Below, one piece after another: positions 11,909-58,792 of a stretch of 64,000 nucleotides of DNA (its first letter is position 1; every line of letters starts with the position of its first letter). A program made the position numbers and the translations under genes. The stretch is from Sphaerodactylus townsendi (Eukaryota): assembly GCF_021028975.2 (NCBI RefSeq), contig NC_059429.1, forward strand, positions 24,676,001-24,740,000. Direction: 5' to 3'. The notes below the pieces were generated by a model. The model ran no database searches. It was not told the origin of the DNA and worked only from the letters and a program-made list of their open reading frames with translations.

Positions 11909-12085
11909 GTTGGGAGTGTTATGGGGTTTCTCGGCTGTATGGCTGTGTTCCAGGAGCATTTTCTCCTGACGTTTCGCCTGCATCTGTGGCCGGCATCTTC
12001 AGAGGAGAAAATGCTACTGGAACACAGCCATACAGCCCGGAAACCCCACAACACCCCGGTGATTCTGGCCATGAAAGCCTTCGAC
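11909..12085. mobile_element. Penelope-like element terminal fragment arranged as an inverted repeat; hammerhead core on the minus strand
   Basis: Arms ~11915-11967 and 12003-12057 are inverted. Tail gtgattctggccatgaaagccttcgac. TSD actcctgta at 11900-11908 and 12086-12094. Confidence 0.8.
11964..12006 (-). ncRNA. Minimal type I hammerhead ribozyme motif
   Basis: The minus strand reads tcct-CTGAAGA-t-gccggccacagatgcaggc-GAAA-c-GTC-agga. The core is conserved, stem II is GCC/GGC, stem III is the palindromic ACGU, and stem I is tcct/agga, extended by the inverted repeat. Confidence 0.75.
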
Positions 12086-13287
12086 ACTCCTGTAATTCAC
12101 CCCAAGCCCTATCCCCCAAAAGATGGGAAATCAGTAGCAGCAAGCAGAACACGGAGTCCAAGGGGCATTAAGCAAGGCATCAGTGAGACTCATCAGATGT
12201 GGGTTTCGCAGCTGAGAAGTGGACCCCTTTCTACTGAATAAGAAATTCAGACTAATGACAGTGCAGTTAGTACAGTGATATGTGATTTTCTGACAATAAT
12301 TCCATCTCAGTGGGTTCCTCTGTCACTTAAGAGTTAAAGGTGTGTGTGTGGGGGGGAGGAGAGGTTAATTCTGGAAACGATGAAGACCATGAAACTAGTA
12401 GACTGAGCTGTTATTTTTAACAATGGGAGCCTTGTATACTCCACACGCCATATGTCCAGTGTAAACGTGTGCAGCCGGTGCACGTGCATTTAAAATCCAG
12501 CAGTGCATTGACTTTTTGCCTCTTCATGATCTGGCAGCAAAAAACTCCAATACCATTCCGGCTTCGCTGGCACAGGCCAAAAGCTGCCACTTCGTCAGCT
12601 AACAGCTGGCACATCTTGGACTGTCATCATTCAAACAAGAACTGCTCCAATCATGGATCAGGAATAATACACTTACAGTCAAAAATAGGTTTTTACTGGA
12701 ATGCTTTTCAGGTCACATTCATAAGCAGTAATACCAAGAACATGGATCTTTTGTACCCCGTATAAGTACAGAAAATCTGCTTGCAAAATCAAGTTGGTTT
12801 TAAAACATACATGTGAGAAAAATGTGACATCCTGGCAGTCATTCCACTGAACAGTTAGGTTTTCTTAGAACAGTGATACTGATATTATATTCTTCATCCC
12901 ACCCCCGACTTTTCCACCACTGAACTCTGCCAGCAGTGATAGGACATTGTTTTAAATTATAAATAACATCATTAGCAGGTAGCAATATATACAATGTAAA
13001 AAAAAGAGAGAGAAATACACCAGCAAATGTCTGGTTCCAAACAGGGTTTCCTTCAACAGGCGGATGGTGAGGTTTTAGATTCAAAGTTGACACGAACATG
13101 AACTTTTGGCTGGAAAAAAAGAGGTTGATTTGTCAGGTCCTCCGAATACCCTCCTCAGAGAGTGTCACCTGCCTTCAAGGAAAGAAACATTTCAAAGCTA
13201 TATACATGTTACGTTCCACTGAAAGCACGCAGCGGCTTGCTTGGCTGTCATTCCAAAGCCACGTCCACAGCAAACTCCATCAGCAAG

Positions 13288-16200
13288 TCAAGTGTGGTAT
13301 TTTAGGATGATGGGAACTGCACAAGACAGAGAAGGAAGCATCCTGAAATATACATGAGGTGTAAACTGACCAACTTCATCCTCTGTTATCAAGACTTCTC
13401 CTCCATCACTGCAGCATCCTCTCCAAGGTCAATTCAGAGCACGTTCTGAAGCATATCTGGGGTGCTGTGTGGTTTCCGGGCTGTATGGCCGTGTTCTAGC
13501 AGCATTCTAGCTAGAACACGGCCATACAGCCCGGAAACCACACAGCACCCCAGTGATTCCGGCCGTGAAAGCCTTCGACAATACATTGAACTTAAGCATA
13601 TCGTTTGTGCCCATGATTAAGCAGTAGAACAGCATATCCTATAGCTATTCTGGACCTTTTGAGGTTTGGCACACCTGAGCATTCTCTGAAATGCTTCTAC
13701 AGCCAAAACATTATCAGTGCAATTTTATGCAGAGCTATATTCTGCGTAAGTCTACTGAAGGCTACATTGTCCCTCTCACCAATGGAGCTGGCTACTGGTA
13801 TACCAACGAAGGGGAGATCTTCTCACATGATCGACCTACATCCCACAACACCCCCACCCGTGGCCAGTCTCTTGGGCTACCTAAAGTGAAGCTACAGAGA
13901 ACTTCTGAAAAATTACACGGTCTATTTACTGCACCTGACAGAATATCCAGCAGTCACATCTGAGCTGAGGGCTCATTCCACCCTGACACAGTAAACAGAC
14001 CTAGTTACGATCTCCAAAATAGATTTGCATTCTTAATAGAGAACTGAGAGAAAAGATCACAGATGAAGCTCATGAATACTTGAATTCTGGGAGATATTCA
14101 TTCTCTCCTCAGCAGTATTCACTGACATTCCTTTCTTACACACCTCCACTTTGGCCCTCATTTAGCCTTTCCATCTGCCATGTATAATATATAAATATAT
14201 ATCAGAGCGCTAAATAGAATGGAAGTTGACACCAAGTAAGAAACACCTCAAGTCAAAAGTCTCGGACACAGCTGAAATCTATTTCTAGATGTGTCCCTTC
14301 CCTGCATTTTAACACAAACCAGTCATGAACCAACAGAAGCCAAATTCTGTTCCAGATACCACTAAATTCTTCAACCTATATAAATTATGCAAATTAAGGT
14401 TGAAACTCACTATTGAGGAAGTACAACTCACTGGGCTCCACTTGAAGAAATCTACATAGGATTATTATGTAAGAAGAGCTGCAAATCTGGCCAGTTTTGC
14501 ATAGTTTGGCTACAGCTGGTCACAGAAGATGACAAGTGGAAGATCACAGTGACCCTGAAACTAGAAAATTTCTAAAAAATGGTCAGCCCATGTATGCATG
14601 AATTTAAAAGGATCTCCGAACCCAAAACCCACAGTCCTCTAAGAATACAAGGATACGGTGGGCTAAAGGGCATTCTTTGGCAAACTCTAAACTAGCAAAC
14701 CTGCAAAAGATGGTGGAAGGCACATGATGCAGTCTTTATTGAACATTAAGTAAGGTCTGGGTGGGAGATCTCTTGGTAAGCTGCCTGTTCTTGCATTGAG
14801 TAGTGGGCAGGGTGGGGTTAACTAGATTGCCTCTGATGTTCCCCCTGACTCTAGGGACTCCCAATTGCCCAGTGGTACAGCAACCAGTGGTGCCAAAGAG
14901 CAAAAGTGAAAAGACTATGCAGGTTTCTTGAAGGTAGCAAAATCAAGGGTATCAACTTGAGCAGCATGAAGCTATTTGAGATCTGGGCTCTTCAAAGAAG
15001 CTACCCAACTCCGCAGAGAGCATAGCACCTTCAGTGTGATTTACTCACCAATAATCACTAGGAGAACTGCAACAGCAACCAGTGCCACAATGGCCTTCAT
15101 CTGCAGAAAGAAGCACAAAGAAATAATAGGGAAGTCATTCCTAAAATGGTCTTAGAATTCACTGAGCTGAAGAATCGTTATAACAGCTCTGTAAGGAAAG
15201 CCAATGTTACTTCCCCTGTTACTGCAGACAGGCAATGAAATTTGAAATGATAACCTCCTAGGTAATTCTGTCTAGGCCGAAAAAGATGGCACATGCAACA
15301 CAACCAGCTTGCGCACACACATGACATCAGCAAACTAATGTACCAAAGCACACCAGACTCAACTTGCCTCATCAGCACAGCACAGGGGAAGGAAGGGCTT
15401 CAGCCTTCCCTCCTGTGCAGTTTACCAGTGTGGAAAGGACCATGTGGCTGCATGTGTCATCAACGCATAATGTAAAGCTCCATAGCAGAGCAAACCAGTC
15501 CCTTCCCTGAGCCAATGCTGCTTGGGAAAATAGCATAGGAAGGAATCCTAATGCCCTCCCTCCCCCCAATTAGACCCTGGCCCACCTGGGAAGCGTAGTT
15601 TACCAATGCCCTGTGTGTCTACAAATCAGATCAGGGCAGTGACCTGACTTGCATCACAAGTACCATCTATTTGAGTCCTTAATCACATTTCAAGACAAGT
15701 AGTCAGGCTACCATGTCCCAAATACAAGTAGAGATACAGTTGGAAAAATGGAAACTAACTCCCACTTCACGATTATAATGGTAAAAGCTAGCAGAACTGA
15801 CCGAATAACACCAAACAGCATGATAATGTGAAGTTACAAAATAAGAGAACATGGGTGTGCAGTACAATTGGATAAGTTCAGATCTTCAGTCAACTATGAT
15901 GCTTCAAAGATGTACCATCTAGGAAGGTGATGGAGCTTGTCTTTAAGACAGTGACCAAATGAGCAAGGAAAACAGACTGCTCAGATTCAACCACATTGCA
16001 AAGAGCTGAACCTGGTCTCCAGGGGGAAAAATTCAGCCCATTTTAACTGCAATGCATGCAGAGGGGCACAGCAGCGTAACTTCTGAATGAGCAATAATAT
16101 GCTCCAAGTTCACTTGTGATAACATTGCCATAAATGACAGAGAAGGAATTCCCCTTTTGGTGTCTCACCTTGCAGCCACGCCACCACATCTGTCTTCGGA

Positions 16201-22200: not shown

Positions 22201-25200
22201 AAAGGGGCATCTGGTACCCAATAGCCCTTTTGAATACTGGCAGGGCCCATACCAAGCCCACACAAGGATTGCTGAACTTTCTAGTTTTCACCTCTCTTTG
22301 TCACAGTCTTTCCTTGACCTCAAGAAAGTTTACTCCCAGGGTCAGTGGACCAAAAGGGATAATAGCCATATAGGTCAGGATTTTGCTGTGAGGAAGAGGG
22401 AAAATGGATTCCTCTTATTTTTTCCATCATGCAAGAGAAATGGTTGGTCCTAAGACCTGAAAAGGCTGATAGGGCAAGAGTATAGCCCTATCATACTCTT
22501 ATACTCAAGAGTATAGCCCTATCATATCTACAGACATCAGCAACTGTTAGAGCCTTCTATTGTCAGATCACAAGATCCAAGCCATTAAGAACATGCACTT
22601 GGCCGTTCCATGATACAGTGCTCACTTTGTTGAAAATAGTATCAGATCTCTCAAGCCTTGGAAATTGAGCATCCAATGCTGTGAAACTGGAACTCTGTGG
22701 TGATTTTATATCAACTGGAAATATGTCAAGTGACCCAGTTCAAAATGCCACAAGATACTTACTGCCTGATCTTATCATTCTTGGGTCCAAACCTTGGACC
22801 TGAGGGACCTCTCCTGCAAAGAGATGACACACGACATAGGACTCGTCATTAGATTAAACTGAGGTGCATTTCTTATCTGTTTTAGAGAACATTATCTTAT
22901 GATTCAGAGACAAGACATCTGGACTTTGAAAATTCTGTACAAAGTAAGAATAGAACAAAATGAGCCAGCAGGAACAGCATTTCTCCCATCAGTCCACTGC
23001 CTCAGACACCTTAATTTTGCATTGAAAGTTTCACAGTAAAAGTTGCTGGCAGTGAATTTTGCCCAAATTCCAATGAATGTTGGAGACAAGTGCTTGATGC
23101 TGATTAGTAGGCAAGGTGTAAGGCTCTGCTACTCCAGTCAATCATGGAGACTCTAGATGGGTTCAAGAGCTTTATTGAACTGTGTCAGGATCCTTGCTGC
23201 AGAAAGCCAGAGCTAAGGAGCCTGGCTTCTGCAGCTACATTTATCTCTAACTTTCCTGCTTTCTCGGATTCCCCCCTCCCACCTTTCCCCATAATAAACC
23301 GAATAGAAAAAGAAGGAGGTGTGATCAGTATTGTTATCTGTCCCAAGTTTCAATGAGGAGCGATAGACTCATTCCGGACCTTTGGGGGGGCGGGGGGGAG
23401 AGCCAGGAATGAGGGAGGCATACTTCACTATGTTGCAAAGTGTAGCGATTAAGACAGAAAGGCCCATTAAGCATACACAGATGACAGCAAGTGCAGGTGT
23501 GACCTTGGCCCCAGCCAACCGAGACGGAAGCCAGGCCTGACACAAGATCGATATAGGATCCACAAAAGTTTTGGCACCAGGGCCTGAAGGATCACTCTGT
23601 AAAGACCCACCCCACTAGTTTTTGCTGTAGTCTGAGAGACACTTACAAGAAAAAATCCTCCTCTTCATCTGAGTCTTCCTCCAAGAGGTTTCTCTGCAAA
23701 TACAAATGTTTCGTAAATCTCAAACAAATTAATGTCACCTCATTACAACATTTCCCTGACACTATTACTTGCATAAATCCCCCCCCCCCCCCCCCCCCCC
23801 CCCAAGACAAGCGGATGAAAATGTTTTGCCTGGTAGGACAGTCAACCACCCCTTGGTCACATTATATGAAAAAGAAGGCAATATGCTCCATGAGGAAGAA
23901 TGACAACTGGGAGAGGGAACACCATCTCTTCTCCCCCATGAAGAGATACAAGGATTATGCTGGAGGTAGAGTCAGAGAAAAGTTTAGAGGCACAGTTTTG
24001 TTGAAGATGATCCTCCTCCCACTTAGAAAACTACAGCCTTAGAACTGCACCACTAAAAATAGGGGGGGGGGAGGCAGCATAATTTTGGAATCTCCGTTTT
24101 CACTTAATACACACGTGAATCAAAAGCATGGAGACACATTCTAGGGCAGGTTTGTAATATATTTCTTCATATCCTTTCCTATTCCTTTCTCACCAGCCAC
24201 TTAGTCAAGAATTATCATTACTTGCTCAATCAGCTTTTATGGAGGATCCAAATTAGGTTGCGGGTAACACTTGCATTCCAGTATCTCCTCTACCTTCCTT
24301 CAGACCTGACATGTGGAGTACCAAGTGGTCCAGTATGGAGAACAAGACTGCTACTGAATTTCACAGAAATACTGCCCCTTTAAATTTTCTTCCTTGCATT
24401 CCAGCTTAATTAATTATTTCCTTTTTCTCTCTGTTGCATCCAGAGCTGGGAGAAGTTCCAGCTAGAGCAGGGGTAGGGAACCTGCGGCTCTCCAGATGTT
24501 CAGGAACTACAATTCCCATCAGCCCCTACCAGCATGGCCAATTGGCCATACTGACAGAGGCTGATGGGAATTGTAGTTCCTGAACATCTGGAGAGCCTCA
24601 GGTTCCCTACCCCTGAGCTAGAGCATGCATCTCGCCTCAGTACCACTATAGGATAACATATTCAGTTAAACCTATTTTGTTTTTTCTAGTTTGGAATAGC
24701 AGTGGCTAGTAAAGCAAGTGCTGGATTTGGGAGAAATATAATGGGTGGCCCTAACCAAGATGCTGGGTACCAAAGGCCGAGCGAGGGGGAACTGCACCCG
24801 GGGCATGTGCGTGCCCTGCGCCCCGCTGCAGTGCCGTCCGCCCCTGCCCATTACGCCCTCTCCGTGGCCCGGCCACACTCCCTCCGCCCGAGGCATCGAA
24901 CCCCACCTGACTCTGTTGGCACTACGCCACTGCTGGGCACCCAGTCCATGGAGGCTTCCCTAAAGCGTGGGGAGCCTTGAAATGTGAAAAAGCCTCCCTG
25001 CTGACAGGAAGCTCCTACTGGGCTTAATGGACTTATGTCACCTTTTTGGTGGCATAAATCCTAAGCCTGGACCACTGGTGCAGTGGCAGAAATGGCCAGG
25101 AGATGTCAAATCTCTTCCCCGGCAGTCTCTTCGAAGTTCTCAGTCCCCCTTTTAGTTTAACCCATTCCCCTTCTAGTTTAACCCATTCAAACGGGGAAAA

Positions 25201-26525: not shown

Positions 26526-26635
26526 ATTTTCACAAAGCTGCTGCTTTTGTTTGCCCAGTGAGAAGAGGAAAGGAGAAGTCAGTACCTAGGACGACAAAAG
26601 GGGAAGAGATGCTGCTAAATAAATAAATAAATACA

Positions 26636-26640
26636 TGTGC

Positions 26641-26680
<40 letters not shown>
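26636..26680. repeat. Compound (GC)n(AC)n microsatellite next to the VAMP4 exon 2 acceptor
   Basis: tgtgcgcgtgcgcgcgcgcacacacac..., an alternating purine-pyrimidine tract. Confidence 0.9.
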
Positions 26681-26684
<4 letters not shown>

Positions 26685-29122: not shown

Positions 29123-29460
29123 CTAATTCCCGTTCAGACCCGGCACGGAAATGGCCGGTATACCGAGAATGAATCGCCGTCGTCGTCAGCTGCAACTCCA
29201 TCGATCGCTCGGCGCTCCTGACCAGGGAGAGAAGCCGAACACCCAACACATCGATGATGACCTCAAGCGCCGCCAGGGGAGACGTCCTATTGGACCCTTC
29301 CGAATTCTGTCACTATGCCCCGCCCCCTCGGCTAGTCGGTATACCGATAGTGGGCGGGGAGATGAACCGACGATAGACAGGGGAAAGGGCGGGGCTGACT
29401 TCAGCAGGCGACGCTAGGGAGACTGACTGATCAGAAGGCAAAACAAAAAGATGCGGGAGG
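29123..29460 (-). promoter_or_regulatory. VAMP4: VAMP4 non-coding exon 1 and CpG-island promoter
   Basis: CpG-rich island. Minus-strand donor AG|gtgagg at 29123/29122. CCAAT (attgg 29289-29293), GACGTC at 29281 and GC boxes at ~29318, 29352 and 29387. The exon 2 acceptor is at 26585. Confidence 0.75.
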
Positions 29461-32297: not shown

Positions 32298-32512
32298 AGC
32301 CGTGTAAGGTTTCCGGGTTGTATGGCCTTAAAGAAAGATTCTTTCGAATGTTTCGCCAGAGCCTGTGGCTGGCATCTTCAGATGATCCTCTGAAGATGCC
32401 AGCCACAGATGCAGGCGAAACGTCAGGAGAGAATGCTGCTAGAACACGGCCATACAGCCCGGAAACCACACAGCACCCAAGTGATTCCGGCCGTGAAAGC
32501 CTTCTACAATAC
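32298..32512. mobile_element. Penelope-like inverted terminal fragment: degenerate left arm, intact right arm
   Basis: The right arm is nearly identical to 58660-58790. The left arm is a divergent reverse complement of it. Confidence 0.8.
32386..32428 (+). ncRNA. Minimal type I hammerhead ribozyme motif
   Basis: tcct-CTGAAGA(32390-32396)-t-gccagccacagatgcaggc-GAAA(32417-32420)-cGTC-agga. Confidence 0.75.
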
Positions 32513-32592
32513 GTTATAACGATTGTTATACTGATCGTTATAACGATCGTTACAATGGCCATTAATTGCTGCCGTAACACTAAAGTGCCTAG

Positions 32593-32726
32593 CAGTGGTG
32601 GCGAACCTATGGCACTCCAGATGTTCATGAACTACAATTCCCATCAGCCCCTGCCAGCATGGCCAATTGGGGCTGATGGGAATTGTAACCCATGAACATC
32701 TGGAGTGCCATAGGTTCACCACCATG
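32593..32726. mobile_element. Palindromic hAT-type MITE
   Basis: Same internal sequence (actacaattcccatcagcccc..ggccaattgg) and TIRs as the other copies. TSD imperfect. Confidence 0.75.
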
Positions 32727-36400: not shown

Positions 36401-39400
36401 CCAAAGGCACCTGGTAGGCCACTGCGAGTAGCAGAGAGCTGGACTAGATGGACTCTGGTCTGATCCAGCTGGCTTGTTCTTATGTTCTTATGTTCTTATG
36501 TCTCCTCTTCTGCTAGCAACTGTCCCTGCTCCTTTCCCCTTCATTCCCTAGTGAAAATCATCCACTGCAGAAAAAAACAGGTTTTCCTGTTGACTTCCTC
36601 CAGTTTATCATCTAGTCTTCCAGCCACAAATTGAAATGCTAAACAACAATAGCCTAGTTTACACGTGGTTACAGAAGCCCAGTTCTTAGGTGTAATAGTG
36701 AACAAAAACCTGGAGTCTAGCTTTGGATCCAAGGCAGACTTCTCCACTGCAGGTTAGCCTATGTAATACAGACAAACAAATTCTACAAGAAGGAAGAAGG
36801 TGCAGAGGGACAATAAGGTCACAAAACAGCAAGAGACGGAGGCCAAGCAACATGCTACAGAAAGGCCCTCCCCATCAGAAGCAATACAGATGGACCAGAC
36901 TAAGTTATGCTAGAGTTCACAGAAACCATTGGTTCTGGGAGATGTTTGGAAACGCAACCTTGAATGTATCTTCTGGGCCAACTGCATCTGCGTGTTAGAA
37001 TGCATAAGATGCCCTGGACCAAACTGGGCCTCCCTCCAGCCTTCTCTTCCCTCCCACTCTGTACTTCTTTGTACTGGAGCCACTTTGACCTCAAAGCATT
37101 CAGCTTAGGCCTTCATATTGGGAGAAGTATGGCTATAGATATCGAGCAGCTACACTAAACTCCACTCTCCCATCCTGGAAGGGGCCCCCCCCCCCCCCCC
37201 ATCCAGCTCCTGGCATAAAAAGTGCAGCTGCTTGCTAGGGGCAGCAGTTGCACAAGCTGAGCTGGGGATCAAAGTCTGGGAGAGTAGTTAAGAGACTGAA
37301 TCAGAAAGTCCTCGAGCGACATCTCACTTTTGCTATAAATTCATCAGGCGGTCTCTTAAATCTCAATTACCTCATCTGCAAAATGGGTATAATAATTCTG
37401 GTTTTCTTTTCAGGGTTGTTGAAAGTTAACTAAAGAACTGTAAAAACGCTAAGCACTGCTATTATATTGAGCATGAGTATGGTGGTGCAGCAACTTCCAA
37501 TCCAGTGTCTTCTACAGGACAAGCATTTGGAGATACAAGGCTGATTTTTCCCATTAGGTAAACCTGCCCTGTTCTTATGCAGTGCAGATGCACACAAGCC
37601 CTTTTTTCACACAAATATCCGGTACTCACATGAGTCTGACCTTTGAATAACTTCACTGGGTCCTCTGGATTCCCGGTGCTGAATGCAAAAGTGCAGAGGG
37701 CATAAGCAGACTTGTCTTCAAATCCTGCTAGCAGTTTGTACAGACCTAGGCCACAGGAAGAGGGGTATCAGAAGATTTCTTCTGGAGAAACAGATAGTTA
37801 CACTGGAATCAAGAGGAGTAGGCACATTTGGGTGCCTAGGTAGGTCTCCCACACTTCCCAAGGTAACACAAACTAAAGCACACTATGGCCCCTTCCGCAC
37901 ACGCAAAATAATGTGTTTTCAAACCACTTTCACAACTGTTTGCAAGTGGATTTTGCTATTCCGCACAGCTTCAAAGGGCACTGAAAGCAGTTTGAAAGTG
38001 CATTATTTTGCATGTGCGGAATGAGCCTATATGATTAGAGAGTCCTTCTGGGGGATCAGAGCAGCATATGATTAGACACTTCAGAAACAACCAAGCAGTT
38101 CTAGTGAGAGTCCTTATTGCAGCAGCAAGCAGTATATACATGTATAGGCTGAATTACCTTCAGGTTTCAGCTTCTCCAGGAACCATTTGCTGAAACAAAA
38201 AGATGCAGGTCACTTTCTTCATTCCCTCCAACATCATTCTGAAAGCAAGAAAGCCCAAACAATTCCCATCCATCTGTCAGGAAGGACTCTTAGGAAATAA
38301 CATTTGAACTCTCAATGCTCTTGTCCATTTCAGAGAGGCAGGTACAAAAGATCATCCTTGTCAGCTGTGCCACTGCAAAACCAAGAGGCCCACTGGAACA
38401 CCAACACAGCCAAAAAGGTCAGAGGCACTGTCCAAAGTTATTACCTGTTCTGCCTCCATACTAGCTCATTCTGCCCTTTTCCCCTATGACAGCGGTGGCG
38501 AACCTTTGGCACTCCAGATGTTATGGACTACAATTCCCATCAGCCCCTGCCAGCATGGCCAATTGGCCATGCTAGCAGGGGCTGACGGGAATTGTAGCCA
38601 TAACATCTGGAGTGCCAAAGGTTCGCCACCACGGCCCTATGATGGTGGAGTAAAACCAAAGCCAGATGGGCTACTGGGATTCTGGGATCCACAGCCTTCA
38701 ACCAGCAAACAAAGCTGAATTGAAATGGATTCCCAACAGTGAATTTGCATATCCTTCTCTCGTGCAACCAGAATCAATGGAATGTGTGATTTTTGTCTTA
38801 GCTGCTTTCCACTTTGCAAGGCATCGAGAAAATCTAAGGAGAAGTCAAGATGGAGATGTGCCTAATGGAGATTACATTTTCTTGGGATTCTTTCTCCAAA
38901 AAAAAAGACATGAACCCAAAGCCAAGTCTGAGCAGCCCCTTCCTGAAAACACCCTGTAGAGTAGGGGTTGCCAACCTATTATGCTCCCGATGTTCATGAA
39001 CTTCAATACCCATCAATTGGCCATGCTGGCGGGGCTGATGGGAATTGTAGTCCATGAACATCTGGAGCACCATAGGTTGGCCAACCCTGCTGTAGAGTGT
39101 CAAATATCAGCCCCACTCCCCCAACAGTTTAGAGTTATACAACCTAGAAGCAGGCCAATTGCCTCAGTGGAAATTAGCATTACCATCCATTGCTGAAGAG
39201 CTTCAATATTTTTTAAAGGAAGAAATATGTGTGAGGCAAACTAAGAATCAGGAACTTCAATTTAGACACTGCTGTTAGTCAGTAATACCCAACCATGGGT
39301 GCACTGAAGTTTCCCTGCATTCCTCTCTATTCCTGAAGTCCCTTCTGACCCTTATAAAGATTATTCTCCAGGTCACAGGATCCAGACAAACAATGGGGTG

Positions 39401-42014: not shown

Positions 42015-42331
42015 TCTCCCTATCGCGGATCTGCGCAACCGTAGATGCTCAACCAATCACAAAACAGCAGGTTCTCCTCCCGACTTTTGTTGACCAATGA
42101 CAGCACAACTTTTTTTCTTTGTTCTCATTGGCCTACGAGGCTGCCACTCACGGACTAACTCGAGTCCATTGGGCGTAGCCTTTGAAAGGCGGGAGGTAAA
42201 GTTAGCCAACGACCTTCGAGGATGGAGGGCGAGTGGCAAATAGAGACGCGGGAAAGTTGGGAGGGAAGATAGTAGTTCCGGCATATTTCTCTCTGGCGGA
42301 AGCTGTGCGTCTGGTCCTGGCGGCAGTCGCT
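42015..42331. promoter_or_regulatory. Bidirectional CpG-island promoter shared by ITPA and METTL13
   Basis: Only 317 bp separate the divergent ATGs. CCAAT at 42053 and 42094, ATTGG at 42127 and 42168. TTTGAA at 42181, GGCGGGA at 42188, GCGGGAAA at 42248 and ETS-like CGGAAG at ~42297. Confidence 0.85.
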
Positions 42332-45300
42332 ATGGAAGAGCTGCGGTTGCTGCCGAGACGAGCGCAGGACTTCAGTTCGGCCGGCTATTGGGAGCGCTTC
42401 TTCCGCGAGCGAGGCGCGCACGCTTTCGAGTGGTATGGCGAGTGGGAGGAGCTTCGCGAGCCGTTGGGGAGGTACCTGCGCGTGCGGGATTCGGTGAGAC
42501 ACGTTACGTGGGACAGAGTGGCGCCGGCGGGTACAACGCGCGCTGTAGGAAACAGTGAAATCGTTGAGAAATAGACCTGGCTCTTGCTGGTTACTGTGTT
42601 TTGATCAAAAGTAAACCTCATGTTCATCGGGGTTATTCTCAAGTAAAGTGGTGGAGGACTTTAAATAAAGTCTTCTGGTTGTAGGGGTAAAAATTAATTA
42701 ATTAATAATAAATAAAATAAGTAATAATAAATTAAATAATCAGGAGTCTAGTGGAATCTGTGAAGGTTTATGGTAGACTACAGATTGTTATCTAAGTCAC
42801 CACATAGAAGAGTTTGGTTTTATATCCCTCCTTTCTCTCCTGCAGGAGACTCAAAGGGGCTTACAATTTCCTTGCCCTTTCCCCCTCACAACAAACACCC
42901 TGTGAGGCGGGCGGGGCTGAGAGAGCTCCGAGAAGCTGTGACTACCCCAAGGTTGCCCAGCTGGCGTGTGTGGGAGTGTACAGGCTAATCTGAATTCCCC
43001 AGATAAGCCTCCACAGCTCAGGCGGCAGAGCTGGGAATCAAACCTGGTTCCTCCAGATTAGATACACGAGCTCTTAACCTCCTACGCCACTGCCATTTCT
43101 GTTTGTTGAGGTTTTGTGTATTGTCCAGGGTGTTTACAGCCAGAATCAACTGGCTGTTGTGGGATTTCCAGTCAGTGTGGGCGTGGTCTGGTAGTTTTTG
43201 CTCTTAATGTGTTGCTTGCATCTGTGACTGAGATCTTTAGAGGTATATCATGGTGCTATGACATGCTTCTGAAGGTGCCAGCCGTAGAGGCAGGGGAATT
43301 GTTAGTAACGAAAACTACCAGGCCACGTCCACGCAGCCTGGAAAACACACAATAGCCAGTTTTGTTAATTCCTTTCTGTGTTTCTGCTTGCACTGCTGCG
43401 GTGGAAGGGACTGTAGTGCTTCTGGCTACAGAATGAGGTTCCCCCACTTGTTCATTAATTCTCTACTTTTCTCCACAATGTGGACCCAAAGCACAGCATT
43501 GTTCTACCCTACTTTTTATTTTCATAACAGTTCTGTGAGATTGGTTAGGATGAGTGAGAAAGAAGTGTGCGTGACTCAGGGTCATCCAGAGAAAGGGGAG
43601 CCAGCCACAAGTGGGACCTGGAATTACAGCTCATTGGCAGACTACAGAGGTTAGTTTCCCTGGAGAAAATGGTTGCTTTGGAGGGCGGACTTTATGACAT
43701 TGTATCCCACTGAGGTCCTGTCCTTCCTGGGCTCTATCCCCAATTCTCCAGGAGTTTCACAGCCTGGCTCTGGCAGTCCAACCCCTGCCAATTCCCTGCC
43801 AGTGGCCACTGGGGACCTGGCAACCCTACTGAGAGATTTTCCATGGCAGAGAGAGGATTTGCATCTGAGTCTCCCAGAAGGGCCCTTTTAGGCCCTTTAC
43901 ACCTGGGCCGCTTGTCAACTACTGGGACTCGCTGCTCCTCCCTCTAGGGGAGAGGACTTTGAAAACTGAGTTGCTGGATGCCACTTATATTTATACTTGC
44001 ATTTAATATACTTAGTTTTATTGATTTTATCACTACTTTTAAAGGTTTTTAGTTGTTTTATTATTGTATTGCGTTTATATGTTGTACACCGCCTGGAGCC
44101 CCCTGGGGACAGGGCGGTATAAAAGTGTAAGGTATAAATAAAAATAAATAAATAAGGCAGACTGACACTATAACCCAGGGATTCCCTACCTGCAGACGCA
44201 ATTGAAATTCCAAAACAGCGTGGTAGGTGCAGCAACAAAACGGCTTCCATAGGAGGTGCAGCCAGTCACAAATGTATTCCCACAGCTTAATTTTAGTAAC
44301 AAAGTGAGATGTTCATATTCTTTGGGAACTGCTTAACCATAAGAACCGTTTTAACACAGCGATATGAGTTTTCTTTGATACCATTGCTCATGCTCCAGTA
44401 TCTCTTTGACCAGGTGCTGTAATGCTTCCCTTGCACTGTTCATGTTAAACATCTTGCTTGCTTACAGTCCATATGATTCAGTATCCTTCCTTTCCCCCCA
44501 CTAGATCCTTGTTGTTGGGTGTGGCAACTCAGAACTGAGTGAGCAGCTCTACGACGAGGGGTACCAGAATATCACCAATGTAGACATTAGCGAAATGGTC
44601 ATCAAGCAGATGGGAGAACGCAGTGTCCACCTACGGCCCAAGATGAGCTACCTGGTCATGAATGTGCTGCAGATGGATTTCCCTGACGGGCGCTTCCAGG
44701 TAGTGCTAGACAAGGGCACTCTGGATGCCCTCCTGACTGATGGAGAAGGGCCCACAGTGGCCAGGGCAGAGCAAATGTTTGCTGAAATTGCTCGTGTCCT
44801 CCAGTTTGGTGGGCGTTATCTGTGTGTTTCTTTAGCCCAAGCACACGTATTGAAGGCAGCCTTGGAATATTTCTCCAAGGAAGGCTGGATGATTCGAATA
44901 CACCAAGCCTCTGAGAAGGAAGCTGCTGCTTCTGAGGGTGAATTTGCCCTGCCTGTGTTTGTCTACGTTATGACAAAGATGAAGCAAGTTCCCAACTCAG
45001 CTTCTCTCATCTTGGAACTGTGTGTGGAAAAACATGACAAGCCCATCCGGTTTTCAGCTTTGGAGCATCTGATTGAGGCAGTAAAAGAGAGGCAGCAGTA
45101 TGCCCTGCTTCGCAGCCAGCTCAACAAGAGTCCTAGCATGGGGAATGTCTCCCTGGATCTCTGCAACAAGGAGACTGGCCAAGTTCGCTACACCTTCCAC
45201 GTGGTGCACTGCCTGACTGTGAAAGTGTCTCGGGACAACCAGTTTGCTATCTTCATCAGTGAGTTTATTTTCTCCTTGTTGGCAGCTTGGCAGTACAGGT

Positions 45301-48300
45301 TGGGGAGCTCAGCCAGTAATTTCTGGGAGGAGGGGGGGAGGGATTTTTGGTGTTGAATAAATGGAAACAGAGTACTATGTAAAACAGCAATAGCAAATGA
45401 TAGGAGGGGCCCAGAGGTTACCATCAGACCATTATTTTTCTTTCAGTCTGCTGGAAAGTTTGTAGATACCGGCTTGCAAGTTGTTTGTTTGTTCCAAAAC
45501 TACAACTTCTTTCTTCCAGCAATAGTTCCGTGTACCATGCTTGAAAGAGGAATGAGTTTTGACAATAACTGAATGCATGCTCATGAAGCTGCCTTGTGTG
45601 TAGTCAGTTTGCAGTTGTCTACAGTGACTCTGCTGGATTTCTAATAAAGGTCTTTCCTGTCACCTACTACCTGACTGTGAGAGCCACACCGGTCATAGTC
45701 CGGTAATAATATTTGGGAGACCCAAATCTGAATCCCCATTCTGCCATGGAAGCTTTCTGGGTCACCTTGGGCCTGTCACTCTCTCTCAGCCTAACTTACC
45801 CAATAATTGTTGCAAGGATAAAACAGTGATGGTGAACCTTTTTGAGACCCGAGTGCCCAAATTGCAACCCAAAACCCACTTATTTATCTCAAAGTGCCAA
45901 CCCAGCAATTTAACCTGAATGCTGAGGTTTTAGTTTAGAAAAAACTGGTTGGCTCCCTCTTCCTCCGCCCCACCCGCTCGATAAGGGGCCAGCCTGCTCT
46001 TGCCTCCAGCAAGTCCCGCGCTCGCCGCTCTGGGCCTCTCTAGCATCTCTGCCTCCTCTGCGCCCCCCCCCCTCAAGCAGCAGCCACCCAGAGCACAGGC
46101 ACCAGGCCTGTCGTGCTCAGTGGCCCAGGTCAGCCTCTTAGGATGTGTGGCGGGAGGCATGGATTTCCTCGCCTCTCCCTTGAAATGATCTTAACTCTGT
46201 GTGCTGTGGTGCCCACAGGAGAGGACTCGGAGGAGTGCCACCTCTGGCACCCTTGCCATAGGTTCACCATCACTGGTGTAAGCCATTTGGGTGCCTGTTG
46301 GGGAAAAAGGCAGGATTCTGTGAAGTAAATAATAAAGGAACAATACTTTTAGATTGGAGGTGCTGGAGATTGAGTCTGGGTCTTTCTGCATGGAGAGCAG
46401 ATACTCTTATCATTGAACCAAAGGCCCTCCCCAAATAAAAACTTTATGCTGTGACTTTGCTTCCAAGCTTCAATTTTTCCTGTTTTCAAAACTGCCACGG
46501 AGCAGTGCTGTCCAAGCATTGTGGTTTGCCGTTACAGATTATTCCAAATGCTGTCCACGTACTGAACTTGCTGGACTGAGATCTGTAGCTGGGAAGTGAT
46601 GGGTCAGTGGCTCGTTCCTTCAAAGCCAGTGAAAGGTCTTGCTGCGACGCATGGGCAAGGGTTTCCGCCAAGTCTGTGACTAGCTGGCTTGACTCTCCTT
46701 TCTGCCCAGTTCCACAGGGCAGAGAAACGGAATGGCTTTTTGGGACTGAGGAAGGACGCAAGCAACTGGCTGCCAGTGCCGGGTTCAGACGCCTGGTCAC
46801 TGTAGCCTTGCACCGGGATCAGCACTATGAAGGTATGGAAACCATCCAGGCAGAGCTGTCAGAAAAGGTGATGGAGCTGGCCCCTCCGGGTCTCCAAGCC
46901 CAGCAAAAGGTAAGCTGCTTGTGAGCTGCTGTTGAGAAATCTGTATAGAAAACATAAGTTAAATCCATTGCTCTCTGCCTTGCAGAGAAAAGGGGTTTTT
47001 GTACTTAGCTGCTTCAGTCCTAAACGTTTATGCGCTATTCAAGACAAGCAACTTTCTATGATTTGTTTAAGGCATAAGCAGGTTTGCCCCCATGGCATAG
47101 CGTTTAAAAGTGGCAGATTCTGATCTGGAGGACTGGGTTTATTTCCTTACTCATCCACACGAGCAGCAGACTCTAACAGAAGAAGACCGAGAGTTTGGAT
47201 TTATACCCCACCTTTCTCTCCTGTAATGAGTCTCAAGGTAGCTTACAAACTCCTTTCTCTTCCTCTCCCCACAACAGACACCTTGTGAGGTAGGTGGGGC
47301 TGAGAGAACTGTAAGTAGCCCAAGATCACCCAGCAGGTGGCATGTGCAGGAGCGGGGAAACAAATCCAGTTCACTGCTCATGTGGAGAATTGGGGAATCA
47401 ACCTCCGTTCTCCAGATTAGAGTCCACCTGCTCTTAAGTATCACACCATGCTGGCTTGTTTCCCCACTCCTACACATGAAACCTAATGGGTGACCTTGGG
47501 CCAGTCACAGTTCTCTCAGAACTCTGTCAGCCCCACTTGCCTCACAAGGCGTCTGTTTTGGGGAAGGCAATTGTAAGCCATTTTGAGACTCCTTGAAGGT
47601 AGGGAAAAAATGGGGTATAAGAACAAATTCTACTTCTCTTTGCAACCAACTTGTTTTTTGCATCAGATTATGAACTGCTTGAAAAAATAATATTAATTGC
47701 AGATAATCCCCCCCACCCCCACCCCCCAAAAATCTGGAAGCTGGTATTACTTTTGCATTCATTCCCTTGGTCTGTGAGCTAACCTGTGAGTCTTCCCCAA
47801 GAAGGAATGAGAGTTTTTGCCTGGGGCTTGCTTGTGATGGAGGCACTGCATGTGCTTTTGCAAGATCAGGTAGATTTAAATGTGTGTTGCCTTCTGTTTG
47901 TAGAATGGCCTCATTGCTCAGATAGATGTTTTTGCACAGGTGAGGTCCCAGGCTCAATTCAAGGATCCCAGCTAGCGGGTATTAGAAATTCTTGAGACCC
48001 TGGAGAACAGCTTTGGATCATACGCAATAGTTTCCGTGCATGTAATCTTGCTATTTCAGTGTGTTTTGCTAGATCGGAAAAGGAGCTTTTTCAGTTGTGG
48101 TAACTCACCTTTGGGAAGCCTGCCTTAGGTTTTGGCTTATTTTTTTTTCCCATGCTTTTAACTGAGGGGTTCCATCATGTTTAGCTATGCTGTTTCTGGC
48201 CTGTGAACTGTTCTATGAATATCACTTTCAGCTGCTCAGTTTGTTTGTTGTGCCCTAGCTTAATGTTTGTTTTCTTGGTTTAGCATAACCCCCCCTCCAA

Positions 48301-54076: not shown

Positions 54077-54405
54077 GGGAAGAAAGACCTCCCTTCCTGT
54101 ATGGCATCTGGTGTGCGGAGTGGAGCAGCAGTCCATGGTGGAGTAAGGATAGGTTGCTCCATCATGGTTCTTGTACTGCATTGTGATGAGAGGGATCAGA
54201 ATGCCCTTCCTTGGAGGTGACCCAGGAAGACTGTTAGTAAGAAGGAGGTTGCCCCTCAAAGAAACAATGAAGTGCTTCTTTTGCAATGCGCTTGCCTGGA
54301 AATTGCGGGGGGTACCTGTCAGGTCCCAGTCTCTGTGTGTGCTCCTTGGTGGGGGACTGGGAAAGGTAGTACCAGCTACTTGGAAACTGTCCCCCTTGCA
54401 TTTGA

Positions 54406-54411
54406 AATAAA
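54406..54411 (+). terminator. METTL13: Probable METTL13 polyadenylation signal (AATAAA)
   Basis: AATAAA 330 nt after the stop codon, followed by a T/GT-rich tract. Confidence 0.6.
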
Positions 54412-57099
54412 TTTTCTTTGATCTGTTGTGCAGTGGATGGTGGGGGTGATGCAGTGTGAACCAGTCATGTCAACTAATGTTTAATAGACTGTTGAATGTG
54501 GGAAAGAGGAACATGGTACTTTTTGGTGTATTGGAGCCACTGGACTGTGAGGTAGGGCAAGTACTGGCAAGTACTATGATCCAAAGACTCTCAATATTTT
54601 TTAAGAGTGTATAAGAGGTTGTGGGGTGGAGGCCTGAATTCATCTTCTGGATGTACCATCTTTCCCCACGTCACAAACTCTGATGTGTTCTTGGTTTGTG
54701 TTTTTTTCCAGAGGTCTCTTGGGCTGCTGTTAGGGCTTCTTCAGAAAACAGAGAACTCCAGAGTGCTGTGCTTTTTCATTCAGCCTTGCTCTGAATCATC
54801 CCAATCCAGACGCAAATGTTCCCTGGGCTGTTAGTAGGTCTCCAACCACATTACCTCTTGCGTAATGCCTGCAGCTAAGCCTGACTCATAAAAACATGCA
54901 GGGAGGAGGGAAAAGAAAGCCATGAAAGATGGCCAAAAAGAACATAACACAAAGTTCAGTGCCTTAGTTTGTGTTGCCCATTCATAAACTTAATCAGGGA
55001 CTTTTAAAAACATTGTGCTATCTACAAAATCAATGGCATGAATGTACATTAGACTGCTGCTGTATATGTGGAGTCAGACCAATATTATCTGCTGTGTCTG
55101 GCACAGGCACTTTTTAAAAGCCAAAGCTCACATCCTAGCCCTTCTACCAGGATCCTTGTTATAGTTTTAACAGCAAGGACAGACCCTTTTAATAATCAGG
55201 AGGCAAATTTGGATCCCACCCCCCTAGTTTTTTTAAATTGCAAAGTACTTGTGAGAATAACAGCCAGATAACCTCTGGGAAGATATATTCCCCTTGCTGT
55301 TTCTAATATGGTGACTGGTGTGATGGGAACATGTTTCACTTAAGAGCAAGACATACTGTCTTAGAAATAATTGACCCCTTCCATGTGAAAATCTATGTAG
55401 TCCACCTGCTGAGGAGCTAACATGCATAGAGTTAATGAATTGTCATCATTTCTCTAATCAGAATTACAGGCATCAGCCTATAGAATGACCAATTTATGTC
55501 GCTCCGGTTTTAATCCTCCTCTTAATACTTTCACCGTGTTATTTATAAGCATAGTTACCCCCTTCTAAGCCCATTAACTTCACTTTATTTAGAAGGATGT
55601 AACTCTGCTTAGGATAGAACTGCAGATATAAGAATGTGTATATAAGCAGAGATGCTGAAAAATGAAAGTATATCAGTAACAAGTAATCTAGGTTGTGTTA
55701 AAAATGCCTTTGATCAGCATCCTGCCAATTTAATTTCTGACCAACTGTGCAGTGTCATCTCCTCCCCCAACTCTGCCCCACCCAAGACTGGGTGTGATGT
55801 TGCTCCACCAGGAGCTGTGTCATCTCTGCTTGATGTCATTCTCGGGTGAAGCACAGTTCTCGGGTGAAGCACAGTGTAATGTGGCATATTGTGTATTTTT
55901 GTTTTTTTCAGTGTTGTAATCTTGGAGACGGGTGTGGATGTTCAGCGTTCATCTACACTTCGGAGGCAGCCTGGTGAAAGGAGAGCTGTGGCCAGGGCTT
56001 CTTTGGTCTTCTGTGCATGAGGAATCTGGTATTGGATGCAGAATTCTGCATTCCTGAGAAGAATTTCAGCTTTTATCTAAAGGGGAAAAAATGGCCATAG
56101 GTTGTGGTTGGAAAAATTGCAGCCCTTATTAATAAAATATCACCTAGCTCAGGGGTCAGAGCATCTGTTCTCTGGATGGATCCTTGTTACTCTCCTAATT
56201 TCTTTCAGGCATACTGGACCCCCTGTGTTTTGCCTCACATTTTCATGCCCTCGCAGTACCAAGGTGTTGCAGACATTCAAATCCTCAGGCCAGAGTAGGG
56301 CTTGGAAGTTCCAGAGCATTCCACGGACAGAAGGGTTTCCACCCACGGAGCACAACTTCATCACCTCCCTCTTCCGACTGCAGTACAGAATGTCCTGAAA
56401 TACTGCACTGGCGAGGGAGGGACACACACAATGAACCCTGTTTCTGAGAGGACAGGCATACGTGTTCAGCTGGAAAGCATGCCAACAAACTGCTTAATGG
56501 AACCAGCTTTACTTGATTGATGGACACACTCACCTGAGTACCATCTTAATGTATTGAGCAGGTACCATCTCTCTTGCAAGAATGCAAGACATGAGCAGCT
56601 GTGACTATGGGCGTCCTGTGTTACCTGCTAGTGAATGAGTTCATCTAAATGTCTTCTGGTTGTCATTGTGGGTCAGCATAGATAAGATTGCTGGGAAATC
56701 TGAGTCTGGACCTTCCCAGCATCTTAAAACCAATTAGAGCAATGCTGGTGAGAGGGTCAGTTAACTAATTACCCTGGCATAGCTTCACAGATGGAAAACT
56801 TCCCTCTGGTATTTAATTCTTTTTAAAAAGAGAGCAAGATGAATACCGTTTTGTGTGTGTGTAAAAAGGCTAATAACAGTTGTGGATGGAGGTCTCAATA
56901 AGTAAAAGACTGTTGAAGAGGCAGTGGTTAAACTCACTCCCCCAGGCCTATAGACTGATCTGGTTTGCACTGGAAACATATATGGTTGTATTTTGCTTTT
57001 AAATGACTGCTACCTGATGTTGTGGGCTTCTTTGGAAGAACTTGTCTAATATTTAAGCTACTGCAGGAAAAATGTGTGAAAGTCATTAAAGCATATCCT

Positions 57100-57278
57100 A
57101 GAATCCTATAGTTGGAATGGAGCATACAGACCATCTAATTCAACCCTCTGCTCAGTGTAGGAGTAGCCTAAAGCATCCTTGACAAGTGTTCATCCAAATA
57201 CTTAATGAAGACTGTCAGTGAGGAGAAGCTCACCATTTCCCTAAGCAGCCCATTCCACTGCTGAACTACTCTTACTCT
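57100..57278 (-). mobile_element. Old CR1 3'-end fragment; a second minus-strand CR1 piece lies at ~59285-59420
   Basis: CR1-like 3' UTR and ORF2 end. 59330-59390 reverse-translates to [16 protein letters not shown]. Confidence 0.6.
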
Positions 57279-57730
57279 AGAGAGAAGGCATTTGGATTTA
57301 TACCCCCCTTCTCTCCTGTAAAGAGACTCAAAGGGGCTTACAAACTCCTTTCCCTTCTTTTCCCCACAACAGACACCTTTTGAGTAGTTGGGGCTGAAAG
57401 AGTTTTGAGAGAACTGTAACTAGTCCAAGGCCACCCAGCAGGCTTCATGTGGAGGAGTGGGAAATCAAACCCAATTCACCAGATAAGACTCTGCCACTCC
57501 GGAAATGCAGCTTCCTCATCACCTAGTGAACCATCCTCCAGACTAATTTGGACACCCAAGCTGGTCTTAGCCACTCAAAACTTACTTAGTTCCCCTAGCT
57601 TAGCCACCCTTAAATGCTCTGCCCTCGCTGCAGATTCCCCCCAGGAGACAATTACTAGGTTTGAAGACCTTAAACAAATTGTGGATGGTGTTTTGATGTC
57701 CACTGTGGGGAAACCCAGCAAAAACAGAAA

Positions 57731-58082
57731 GGCCCTTTCCGCACGGGCCAAAAACGACGGCCTGGGGGCGGTAAAAACGCCGCCCCCAGGCTGCCGTTCG
57801 CACAGGCGGCGCTGCTGCATGCCGCGGCGGCACCGACCTGTTCACGCTCCCCCTCCCCCAGGGCGGCGTCAGGCCGCGCTAAACAACAACACCCAAAGGG
57901 TTGATTTATTTGAGGGGAAAGCGTCTTCCCGGCGGCGCGGTGCATGGGAAAGGGAAGGGGGGAAGAGGCGGCTCCATACGCTTTGGGTGGTCTGCCGGCC
58001 TCTGGGAGGCCGTCCGCATGCCTGCATCACGAGCGGCCTCCGCCTCCAACCGGCGGAATTCCTGCCGTCGATGGAAGCGCCC
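57731..58082. mobile_element. GC-rich MITE related to 40506-40976
   Basis: Shares the 5' end ggcc.tttccgcacgggc..aaa.gacggcctgg and has a terminal inverted similarity. Confidence 0.65.
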
Positions 58083-58649
58083 TTACTGCGACGTCGCAGG
58101 AAGCGGCCGAAGGGAGCGTCTTACGGTTTGACAGAGTGCCTGGAGCGCAGCAGTCAGATTAATGCTGCTTAAACTGGAACTTTGGGGCTTCCTGGAGGCG
58201 GGATCTCCTTATCTTCGCTAATAATTTGGCGGGAACAATTTTTTGCCAGTTAATTAGGAAGAACGAGGCCGGACATATCCCAACACTCAATGGGAACTCC
58301 ACTCTGCAGTAACTTCCAACAACTCCAAGCTACTCTGGGCTATCCTAAACAATTTTAATCAAAGCAAGCCTCCTACCCCTATCTGTATTACCCCTGATAC
58401 TTGGCATAACTATTTTATCAAACTTTTTAATTATGATATTTTAAGTAACAGATCTCCTTCACCTATCCCTTTAGATTTGCCTAGCTGGCCTCCTGTCTCA
58501 ACTCAAGAAGTAGTTGAGCTGTTAGAGGACCTCAAACGAAGGAAACCCCCTGGACCTGATTTTATACTCCCAGAGATTCTAAAATTTAATACTGATTAGT
58601 GGGCCTCTATCCTGGCAACTTTTTTACCCGAGTAAACAACTCAGGTATG

Positions 58650-58792
58650 GGTGCTGTGTGATCCTCTGAAGATGCCAGCCACAGATGCAGGCGAAACGTC
58701 AGGAGAGAATGCTGCTAGAACACAGCCATACAGCCCGGAAACCACACAGCACCCAAGTGATTCCGGCCGTGAAAGCCTTCGACAATACATCA
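58650..58792 (+). mobile_element. Penelope-like terminal fragment with hammerhead core, nested in the degraded LINE
   Basis: 12-bp TSD aactcaggtatg at 58638-58649 and 58793-58804. Short inverted 5' piece gggtgctgtgtg. Confidence 0.85.
58662..58704 (+). ncRNA. Minimal type I hammerhead ribozyme motif
   Basis: tcct-CTGAAGA(58666-58672)-t-gccagccacagatgcaggc-GAAA(58693-58696)-cGTC-agga, identical to 32386-32428. Confidence 0.75.

What the first reader, a model, noticed from the sequence alone, without database searches (positions are those of the whole stretch)
11909..58792. Dense family of tiny TSD-flanked Penelope-derived hairpin/ribozyme inserts (5 in 64 kb), possibly a non-autonomous retrozyme-like system
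Seen: copies at 11909-12085, 13457-13593, 32298-32512, 43114-43360 and 58650-58792 share one ~130-nt unit (hammerhead plus tail ...ccggccgtgaaagccttcgacaatacat). All have an inverted partial copy beside a direct copy. In the young copies the inverted arm starts at nearly the same point (ggg(g)tgctgtgtgg), about 30 nt short of the tail. Three have 9-12 bp TSDs. No RT or GIY-YIG coding sequence is present, and the ribozymes at 32386 and 58662 are identical. Known: PLE insertions often show inverted pseudo-LTR ends and carry hammerheads. Inference: these are either stereotyped abortive PLE insertions or a ribozyme-processed small RNA mobilised in trans. The fixed inversion point suggests a defined self-priming or template-switch step.
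Basis: partly seen in the sequence, partly recalled or inferred. Interest (0 to 1): 0.7.

Follow-up and report, generated by a model that had tools for sequence, protein, structure and literature searches.

The report
Penelope run-off hairpin insertions
These 140-250 base hairpin repeats are short insertions of the front end of a Penelope-type jumping gene whose intact copy lies elsewhere in the genome; they are likely dead-end by-products of its copying rather than a self-spreading ribozyme family, and they likely mark where that copying starts, runs off the RNA and sometimes restarts.

Summary
The five inserts are real, but they are not a separate retrozyme family. The ~130-nt unit is 12 nt of leader plus the first 40 codons of an intact 819-aa Penelope/Poseidon-type ORF in the same genome. 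A full-length copy has the same two ends. Arms start at +83-87 or +118-120 of the ORF, matching the two published reverse-transcription start sites; 62 of 64 pairs have one of each. Their 5' ends are not smoothly spread: 57 of 86 arms that reach -10 stop at -10 to -15. In a sister subfamily this stop and a TATA-like box are both shifted ~32 nt upstream, so the stop is likely the mRNA start, not the ribozyme cut. Rare copies show a restart: -12 is joined to +150-500, sometimes repeatedly, giving short tandem hammerhead arrays; the one array junction counted genome-wide occurs at only two duplicated loci. A catalytic G decays at the ordinary CpG rate. The inverted arm, tail and TSD are published, and this scan has noted such hairpins in at least 41 genomes. 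The promoter-tracked stop and the restart were not found in nine literature searches.

The parts
11900..11908 (.). Left TSD of copy 1 (9 bp; right copy 12086-12094)
   Evidence: exact match
11909..12006 (-). Copy 1 inverted (short) arm, about +85 to -10; carries a hammerhead on the minus strand (12006-11964)
   Evidence: blastn 11916-12006 = +81..-10, 88%; start extended by eye to the TSD
12003..12085 (+). Copy 1 direct arm, +30 to about +112; joined to the inverted arm through the 4-nt stem-I complementarity
13449..13457 (.). Left TSD of copy 2 (9 bp; right copy 13594-13602)
13458..13508 (-). Copy 2 inverted arm, +85 to +35, no hammerhead
   Evidence: 98%
13510..13593 (+). Copy 2 direct (tail) arm, +43 to about +124, no hammerhead
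   Evidence: 99% to +120; the next letters follow the ORF
32298..32385 (-). Copy 3 inverted arm, degenerate, about +72 to -10/-12
   Evidence: 79%
32384..32512 (+). Copy 3 direct arm, -12 to +117; hammerhead 32386-32428, predicted cut after 32424, ATG at 32396
43117..43250 (-). Copy 4 tail arm (old, subfamily B-like), +118 to -16
   Evidence: 75-80% to B references
43268..43361 (+). Copy 4 short arm, -7 to +87
   Evidence: 73-81%
58638..58649 (.). Left TSD of copy 5 (12 bp; right copy 58793-58804)
58650..58659 (-). Copy 5 inverted arm, only 10 nt (+82 to +73)
   Evidence: read from the sequence
58660..58790 (+). Copy 5 direct arm, -12 to +119: the complete run-off unit
   Evidence: 98%
58662..58704 (+). 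Minimal type I hammerhead (stem I 4 bp, CUGAAGA, stem II, GAAAC-GUC); predicted cut after 58700
   Evidence: motif read from the sequence and compared with PMC4209133 and PMC11167929; no Rfam hammerhead hit; folding z -0.9 (same stretch in L159)
58672..58791 (+). First 40 codons of the PLE RT-endonuclease ORF

Best explanation
The inserts are short head-to-head insertions of the 5' end of an endonuclease-positive Penelope/Poseidon-type element with an intact copy in this genome, likely made when both strands of the cut target prime reverse transcription at two fixed internal sites and each cDNA runs off the start of the element's RNA. Shown by sequence: the unit is -12..+119 of the autonomous ORF; one arm starts at +118-120 and the other at +83-87; TSDs are mostly 12-14 bp; 5' ends pile up at -12 (subfamily A) or about -44 (subfamily B); lengths range up to full length. 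From the literature: a Poseidon protein cuts and extends both strands and starts at two internal sites that define the tail (PMC11167929). Inferred: the pile-up is the transcript start, about 30 nt below a TATA-like box; the enzyme often adds one untemplated A there; the two cDNA ends are joined, often through the self-complementary GATC at -12..-9; sometimes the enzyme jumps from -12 back to +150-500 and copies again, giving tandem units. The stubs lack the TATA box and the +119..+172 stretch that PAc needs in vitro, so they are likely unable to move again.
For: Intact 819-aa ORF beginning with the unit's 40 codons; RVT_1 E 1.4e-10 on a 489-aa piece; YVDD, CSCG and VYIG motifs. Full-length L167 has an inverted arm from +85-89, a 5' end near -14 and a tail at +119. 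In 145 young A arms, 3' ends are +80..+93 in 61, +113..+120 in 78 and elsewhere in 6. 62 of 64 A pairs and 25 of 30 B pairs have one tail arm and one short arm; 49 of 57 young A pairs have a TSD of 8 bp or more. 57 of 86 A arms reaching -10 stop at -10..-15 (30 at -12): 16% per base against 0.4-0.5% inside the ORF. B arms show no stop there (2 events in 203 at-risk positions), but 12 of 15 reaching -41 stop at -41..-47. ATATA lies at -42 in A and -76 in B. Genome-wide, exact matches fall from 18,736 (to -12) to 9,947 (to -15) over 3 bases. At non-palindromic -12 ends the preceding base is T in 23 of 28 (3 of them short re-copies), C in 2 and G in 3. No shared upstream exon precedes -12. Of 52 loci that continue past the tail, 26 show a head-to-tail join, 14 of them at -10..-15, with 0-2 extra bases or 1-3 bases of overlap. 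Reads of three RNA runs of another species label show loose ends at -12, +83 and +118.
Against: No direct map of the RNA start: the laid RNA runs show no pile of read starts at -12 (fragmented libraries, other species label, mostly host transcripts carrying inserts). The two arms match at a 50/50 diagnostic site in 34 of 38 pairs and share 14 rare changes against 3.2 in shuffles; this fits one RNA read twice, but also two RNAs from one source, subfamilies active at different times, or fold-back. Pfam GIY-YIG did not hit the 489-aa piece, so the endonuclease call rests on motifs and recall. 7 arm ends fall at +29/+30 (3.0% per base), so some cleaved RNA may be used. D. virilis Penelope has a TATA-less internal promoter (PMC2377424), so 'cannot be transcribed' is not certain. 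69 of the A tail arms were selected by the tail motif, and all 90 anchored loci are from the start of one contig.
Confidence: 0.8

Rival explanations
1. A non-autonomous retrozyme: a ribozyme-cut, circular or linear small RNA that is mobilised in trans as its own family.
For: Tandem hammerhead arrays exist (L194, 181-bp unit; L195, 330-bp unit; L193/L196, 162-bp unit) and meet the operational definition in bioRxiv 10.64898/2026.07.22.740005. 12 of 42 short copies that pass the tail end at +151..+157, a possible short-RNA end. 7 arm ends at +29/+30; 5 of them are not explained by stem-I overlap. Non-CpG core changes are 14/1119 against 198/9282 elsewhere (p 0.056).
Against: Unit ends are not the GUC site. 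Tail-to--12 tandem joins: 2 genome-wide. The +152/-13 array junction occurs at 2 loci with the same flanks. G12 is changed in 10 of 108 arms against 90 of 978 for all CpG positions. There is a length continuum to full length. RNA reads over the unit come from both strands with no end pile at GUC.
Confidence: 0.05
2. Fold-back: a single cDNA is made, then primes on itself at its 3' end and is copied back to +85, so the inverted arm is a second strand and not a second start.
For: 1,219 perfect palindromic joins at -12. Arms share source variants. Self-priming was proposed for PLE palindromes (PMC3846280).
Against: The short arm is often longer at its 5' end than the tail arm (for example L008, L115, L118, L085), which a copy of that arm cannot be without later trimming. 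The arms often end at different places with fillers. Both start sites are seen in vitro on both strands (PMC11167929).
Confidence: 0.1
3. The -12 stop is a splice acceptor or an RNA-structure block at the 5' side of hammerhead stem I, not the transcript start.
For: -12 follows a pyrimidine run and CAG. In D. virilis the intron ends at the 5' side of helix I (PMC4209133).
Against: No common upstream exon in arms ending at -12. In subfamily B the stop lies about 35 nt upstream of stem I and moves with the TATA-like box. An extra T and restarts at -12 are what a free template end would give.
Confidence: 0.05

Closest known systems
PAc, Poseidon element of Anolis carolinensis (Frangieh et al. 2024, PMC11167929)
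   Same: ORF starts at hammerhead stem II; RT starts about 111-118 nt into the ORF and 30-40 nt upstream of that; both strands are cut and extended; the tail lies between the two starts.
   Different: Here the predicted cut is 29 nt from the ATG (26 in PAc). The parts of the paper read do not describe a 5' stop at the transcript start, tiny two-armed inserts or restarts. I could not align to PAc (its sequence file is unreadable here).
EN+ PLE insertions with inverted pLTR, tail and TSD (Arkhipova 2013 PMC3846280; Craig 2021 PMC8557442)
   Same: Inverted 5'-truncated copy, 30-40 bp tail at one end, TSD, TATA plus Inr in the pLTR, palindromes at the inverted junction.
   Different: Most copies here are reduced to the two inverted ends, and both arms stop at one base near the Inr-like site. 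TSDs are mostly 12-14 bp, against 8-10 bp in the Adineta examples.
Non-LTR retrozymes (Cervera and de la Pena 2020 PMC7229834; Li et al. bioRxiv 10.64898/2026.07.22.740005)
   Same: Type I hammerhead, PLE origin, unit of 130-330 nt; a few tandem arrays here fit the preprint's working definition.
   Different: The five inserts and nearly all relatives are head-to-head, not head-to-tail; the hammerhead is the minimal PLE type; no circular RNA is shown; the one array junction counted genome-wide is not dispersed.
L1 twin priming, retroviral strong-stop DNA and R2-type template jumping (recalled, not from a call)
   Same: Both target strands prime; cDNA runs off the RNA 5' end; untemplated A and a jump to a new position.
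   Different: Here both starts are fixed internal sites, the two arms cover the same sequence, and the run-off product itself is integrated.

Membership tests
EN+ Penelope-like element, Penelope/Poseidon clade | Single ORF with RT | tested here: met
   819-aa ORF; RVT_1 E 1.4e-10; YVDD at 506
EN+ Penelope-like element, Penelope/Poseidon clade | C-terminal GIY-YIG endonuclease | tested here: inconclusive
   CSCG at 706 and VYIG at 711 with downstream His residues, but Pfam PF01541 did not hit; assignment by recalled motif
EN+ Penelope-like element, Penelope/Poseidon clade | No extra Zn-finger in the RT-EN linker (present in Neptune/Nematis, PMC8557442) | tested here: met
   only one CxC and no CxxC in the ORF; the unrelated L033 element has such cysteines
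EN+ Penelope-like element, Penelope/Poseidon clade | pLTR with minimal hammerhead overlapping the ORF start | tested here: met
   motif at -10..+33 in window copies and L159/L167; cleavage activity not tested
EN+ Penelope-like element, Penelope/Poseidon clade | Inverted pLTR, 30-40 bp tail at one end, TSD | tested here: met
   62 of 64 A pairs; 49 of 57 with TSD of 8 bp or more
EN+ Penelope-like element, Penelope/Poseidon clade | Placement in the clade by RT phylogeny | not tested
   no reference PLE proteins were fetched
Non-LTR retrozyme | Head-to-tail tandem units each with a type I hammerhead | tested here: not met
   not met for the five inserts; 2 tail/-12 tandem joins against 1,219 head-to-head joins genome-wide; met only by the rare arrays L193-L196
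Non-LTR retrozyme | RNA unit defined by ribozyme cleavage | tested here: not met
   unit ends are -12 and +118/+85; only 7 of 145 arms end at +29/+30
Non-LTR retrozyme | Abundant small circular RNA | not testable with these tools
   only fragmented RNA-seq of another species label could be laid
Non-LTR retrozyme | Own lineage dispersed in trans | tested here: not met
   the +152/-13 junction occurs at 2 loci with shared flanks; other array junctions were not counted genome-wide

The most novel reading that the evidence does not exclude
Penelope RT makes a strong-stop-like cDNA from the 5' copy of its start region, adds an A and jumps. Jumps to non-matching sites at +150-500 create short tandem hammerhead arrays in a single insertion, a direct route for the birth of non-LTR retrozymes. 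Jumps to the matching 3' copy on the same mRNA would rebuild the promoter-bearing partial tandem (pLTR), the step that PMC2377424 calls unexplained.
Probability: 0.4. Interest if true: 0.65.

Novelty: new member of a known kind. Interest (0 to 1): 0.36.

Why it matters
As a family it is ordinary: the most common, shortest product of a known class of retroelement. Its value is as a large natural record of PLE copying. It places both published start sites in single insertions, points to the transcript start as the main stop (with a built-in control from two subfamilies), and shows restarts that could explain both pLTR renewal and tandem retrozymes. Each point can be tested with the existing in vitro Poseidon assay.

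Tried and rejected
DNA search of the genome with the 130-mer returned nothing because very common words are skipped; exact patterns were used instead. A Pfam accession recalled for PLEs is not in the library. PF01541 against the genome gave 3 hits; the one translated (L033) looks like a different, Neptune-like element, and none of the three aligned to this family's unit-bearing stretches. An 1,853-aa frame (L124) was a C-rich repeat, not an ORF. Rfam has no hammerhead hit in the window. The monomer fold is no better than shuffles. PDB gave only distant RTs. The look-up of sequencing runs: no RNA holder listed. The 22-mer count includes subfamily B and cannot be used for the -9 to -12 step. The +29/+30 excess was first read as ribozyme-cleaved template; 2 of 7 are stem-I overlap joins and 2 are one insertion, so it stays a weak hint. 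A read joint skipping 60 bases in the 3' UTR has letters in between and is a subfamily variant, not splicing. 29 older arms (A under 88%, B under 85%) were left out of the end counts; A ends near -64/-70 are partly alignment breaks at UTR variants. The PAc supplements held no usable sequence; bioRxiv supplements are closed and may list reptile retrozyme families that overlap this one. Sequence look-up in earlier findings was empty.
Full report
Observation. The five inserts are present as described, with exact TSDs of 9, 9 and 12 bp at three of them. Mapping to natural references gives arms of +81..-10 and +30..+113 (copy 1), +86..+35 and +43..+120 (copy 2, no hammerhead), about +72..-12 and -12..+117 (copy 3), +118..-16 and -7..+87 (copy 4, old, subfamily B-like), and a 10-nt inverted arm with -12..+119 (copy 5). 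+1 is the A of the ORF's ATG. The family is very common: 3,036 exact hits to a 28-mer in the tail, 18,736 to a 25-mer from -12, and 36,964 to a 22-mer shared by both subfamilies, with 0 for reversed controls. Two hits of that 22-mer in the window is about the genome average.

What the unit is. The stretch from the hammerhead's ATG to the tail is an open 40-codon frame. Longer relatives extend upstream through a 245-nt UTR into an endonuclease-like and an RT region. An intact 819-aa ORF that begins with these 40 codons lies on contig C3. A 489-aa piece hits RVT_1 at E 1.4e-10 but not Pfam GIY-YIG; CSCG and VYIG motifs are present and there is no linker Zn-finger. Locus L167 is a full-length insertion: inverted arm from +85-89, ORF starting near -14, UTR, second copy of the start region ending at +119. 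The tiny inserts therefore have the same ends as a full-length element.

Fixed starts. I examined the first 90 of the 3,036 tail hits (all on contig C1; 69 subfamily A, 21 B), their flanks, the window and 20 kb beside it. Of 145 young A arms, 61 start at +80..+93, 78 at +113..+120 (the reference ends at +120) and 6 elsewhere; 29 older arms were set aside. 62 of 64 A pairs and 25 of 30 B pairs combine one tail arm with one short arm, and 49 of 57 young A pairs have a TSD of 8 bp or more, 31 of them 12-14 bp. The tail motif was the selector, so tail arms are over-represented, but it does not force the partner to be short. Frangieh et al. (PMC11167929; main text and start of methods read) showed in vitro that a Poseidon protein cuts and extends both strands and starts at two internal sites, 111-118 nt into the ORF and a tail-length upstream. 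The inverted arm, tail, TSD and TATA/Inr are described in PMC3846280 and PMC8557442 (passages).

Fixed stop. 57 of 86 A arms that reach -10 stop at -10..-15, 30 of them at -12: 16% per base against 0.4-0.5% inside the ORF. Genome-wide, exact matches drop from 18,736 to 9,947 between -12 and -15. Subfamily B has no stop there (2 events in 203 at-risk positions), but 12 of 15 arms reaching -41 stop at -41..-47. An ATATA box lies at -42 in A and -76 in B, about 30-32 nt above each stop, and an Inr-like TCAGAT has its A at -13 in A. No shared exon precedes -12. At non-palindromic -12 ends the preceding base is T in 23 of 28 cases, as an untemplated A on the cDNA would give. 1,219 loci join the two arms exactly through the palindromic GATC at -12..-9. 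I infer that -12 is at or within a base of the RNA's 5' end; whether the terminal G is the first base or a copied cap cannot be told.

Restarts. 133 exact hits continue past the tail. I examined 52 loci, 4 of them picked because they showed clustered hits. 10 are long ORF copies, 16 begin directly at +131..+363, and 26 show a head-to-tail join; in 14 of these (two are duplicates) an arm ending at -10..-15 is joined to +151..+501 with 0-2 extra bases or 1-3 bases of overlap. L194, L195 and L193/L196 repeat such a join two to four times, giving hammerhead arrays of 181, 330 and 162 bp; L194, L195 and L196 are each flanked by one TSD and end at the usual two starts. Later local duplication could account for some repeats. 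12 of the 42 shorter copies end at +151..+157. Four long copies carry the UTR seamlessly upstream of the ORF, which a jump to the matching 3' copy or a read-through transcript would both give.

Retrozyme test. Non-LTR retrozymes are head-to-tail units with a type I hammerhead that yield circular RNA (PMC7229834, passages; bioRxiv 10.64898/2026.07.22.740005, introduction to discussion read, supplements closed). Tail-to--12 tandem joins number 2. The +152/-13 junction occurs at two loci with the same flanks. G12 of the core is changed in 10 of 108 arms against 90 of 978 for CpG positions; non-CpG core 14/1119 against 198/9282 (p 0.056). Seven arms end at +29/+30, about six times background, but two are stem-I overlap joins and two belong to one insertion. 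Three RNA runs of another species label show reads on both strands over the unit, a fall from over 2,000-fold depth to under 30 past the tail in two runs and to about 100 in the third, loose ends at -12, +83 and +118, and no pile of starts or ends at -12 or GUC. These libraries cannot show small or circular RNAs.

One RNA or two. Arms agree at the 50/50 site +84 in 34 of 38 pairs and share 14 rare changes against 3.2 in shuffles (0 of 1,000), with 153 private changes. Both arms come from one source element, but one RNA, two RNAs from one locus and subfamily waves are not separated. Short arms that reach further 5' than their tail arm (L008, L085, L115, L118) argue against simple fold-back.

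Novelty. The anatomy and the two starts are published. Nine searches found no paper describing a promoter-tracked 5' stop or restarts from it in PLEs; PMC2377424 (passages) states that pLTR renewal has no obvious mechanism, and PMC3846280 mentions template jumps in another context. PMC4209133 and PMC8969392 were seen as passages. The library lacks most subscription papers. Earlier notes of this scan report the same hairpins, double priming and a stop at a predicted RNA start in other genomes (474 findings, at least 41 genomes); I read them after the analysis and count them as leads only. Verdict: a new member of a known kind, interest 0.36; the restart reading would be worth more if shown in vitro.

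Noticed in passing
L194, L195, L193/L196 (G000 C4:158.576 Mb, C6:21.33 Mb, C3:148.009 Mb, C7:17.91 Mb): Short head-to-tail hammerhead arrays (181, 330, 162 bp units) inside single insertions, each join running from -10/-13 to +152..+321.
   Followed up: partly
L181-L232: 12 of 42 short copies that pass the tail end at +151..+157: a possible third start site or RNA 3' end.
   Followed up: no
L124:2694-7702 (G000 C2:112.687-112.692 Mb): A 5-kb C-rich repeat sits between two inverted arms; likely an assembly artefact at a long palindrome.
   Followed up: no
L159:3468-3699 and 6397-6629: The intact ORF copy ends in its 3' UTR without a tail and is flanked by a 232-bp direct duplication instead of a short TSD.
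   Followed up: no
L033:694-1641: A second, Neptune-like PLE fragment with linker cysteines and a Pfam GIY-YIG hit.
   Followed up: no
L168/L129 (G000 C8:10.035-10.042 Mb): An insertion with an ~836-bp internal ORF segment repeated in tandem several times.
   Followed up: no
window 1595-1774, 24463-24620, 32604-32716, 38501-38623, 38957-39091: A different family of short palindromic repeats (MITE-like; label recalled) that gives false microRNA hits in Rfam.
   Followed up: no
window 42811-43090, 47178-47454, 57291-57502: A common ~290-bp repeat, probably a reptile SINE (label recalled); copy 4 lies just downstream of one.
   Followed up: no
L077/L078, L224/L225: Pairs of loci with the same insert junction; L077/L078 also share flanks, so probably segmental duplicates.
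   Followed up: partly
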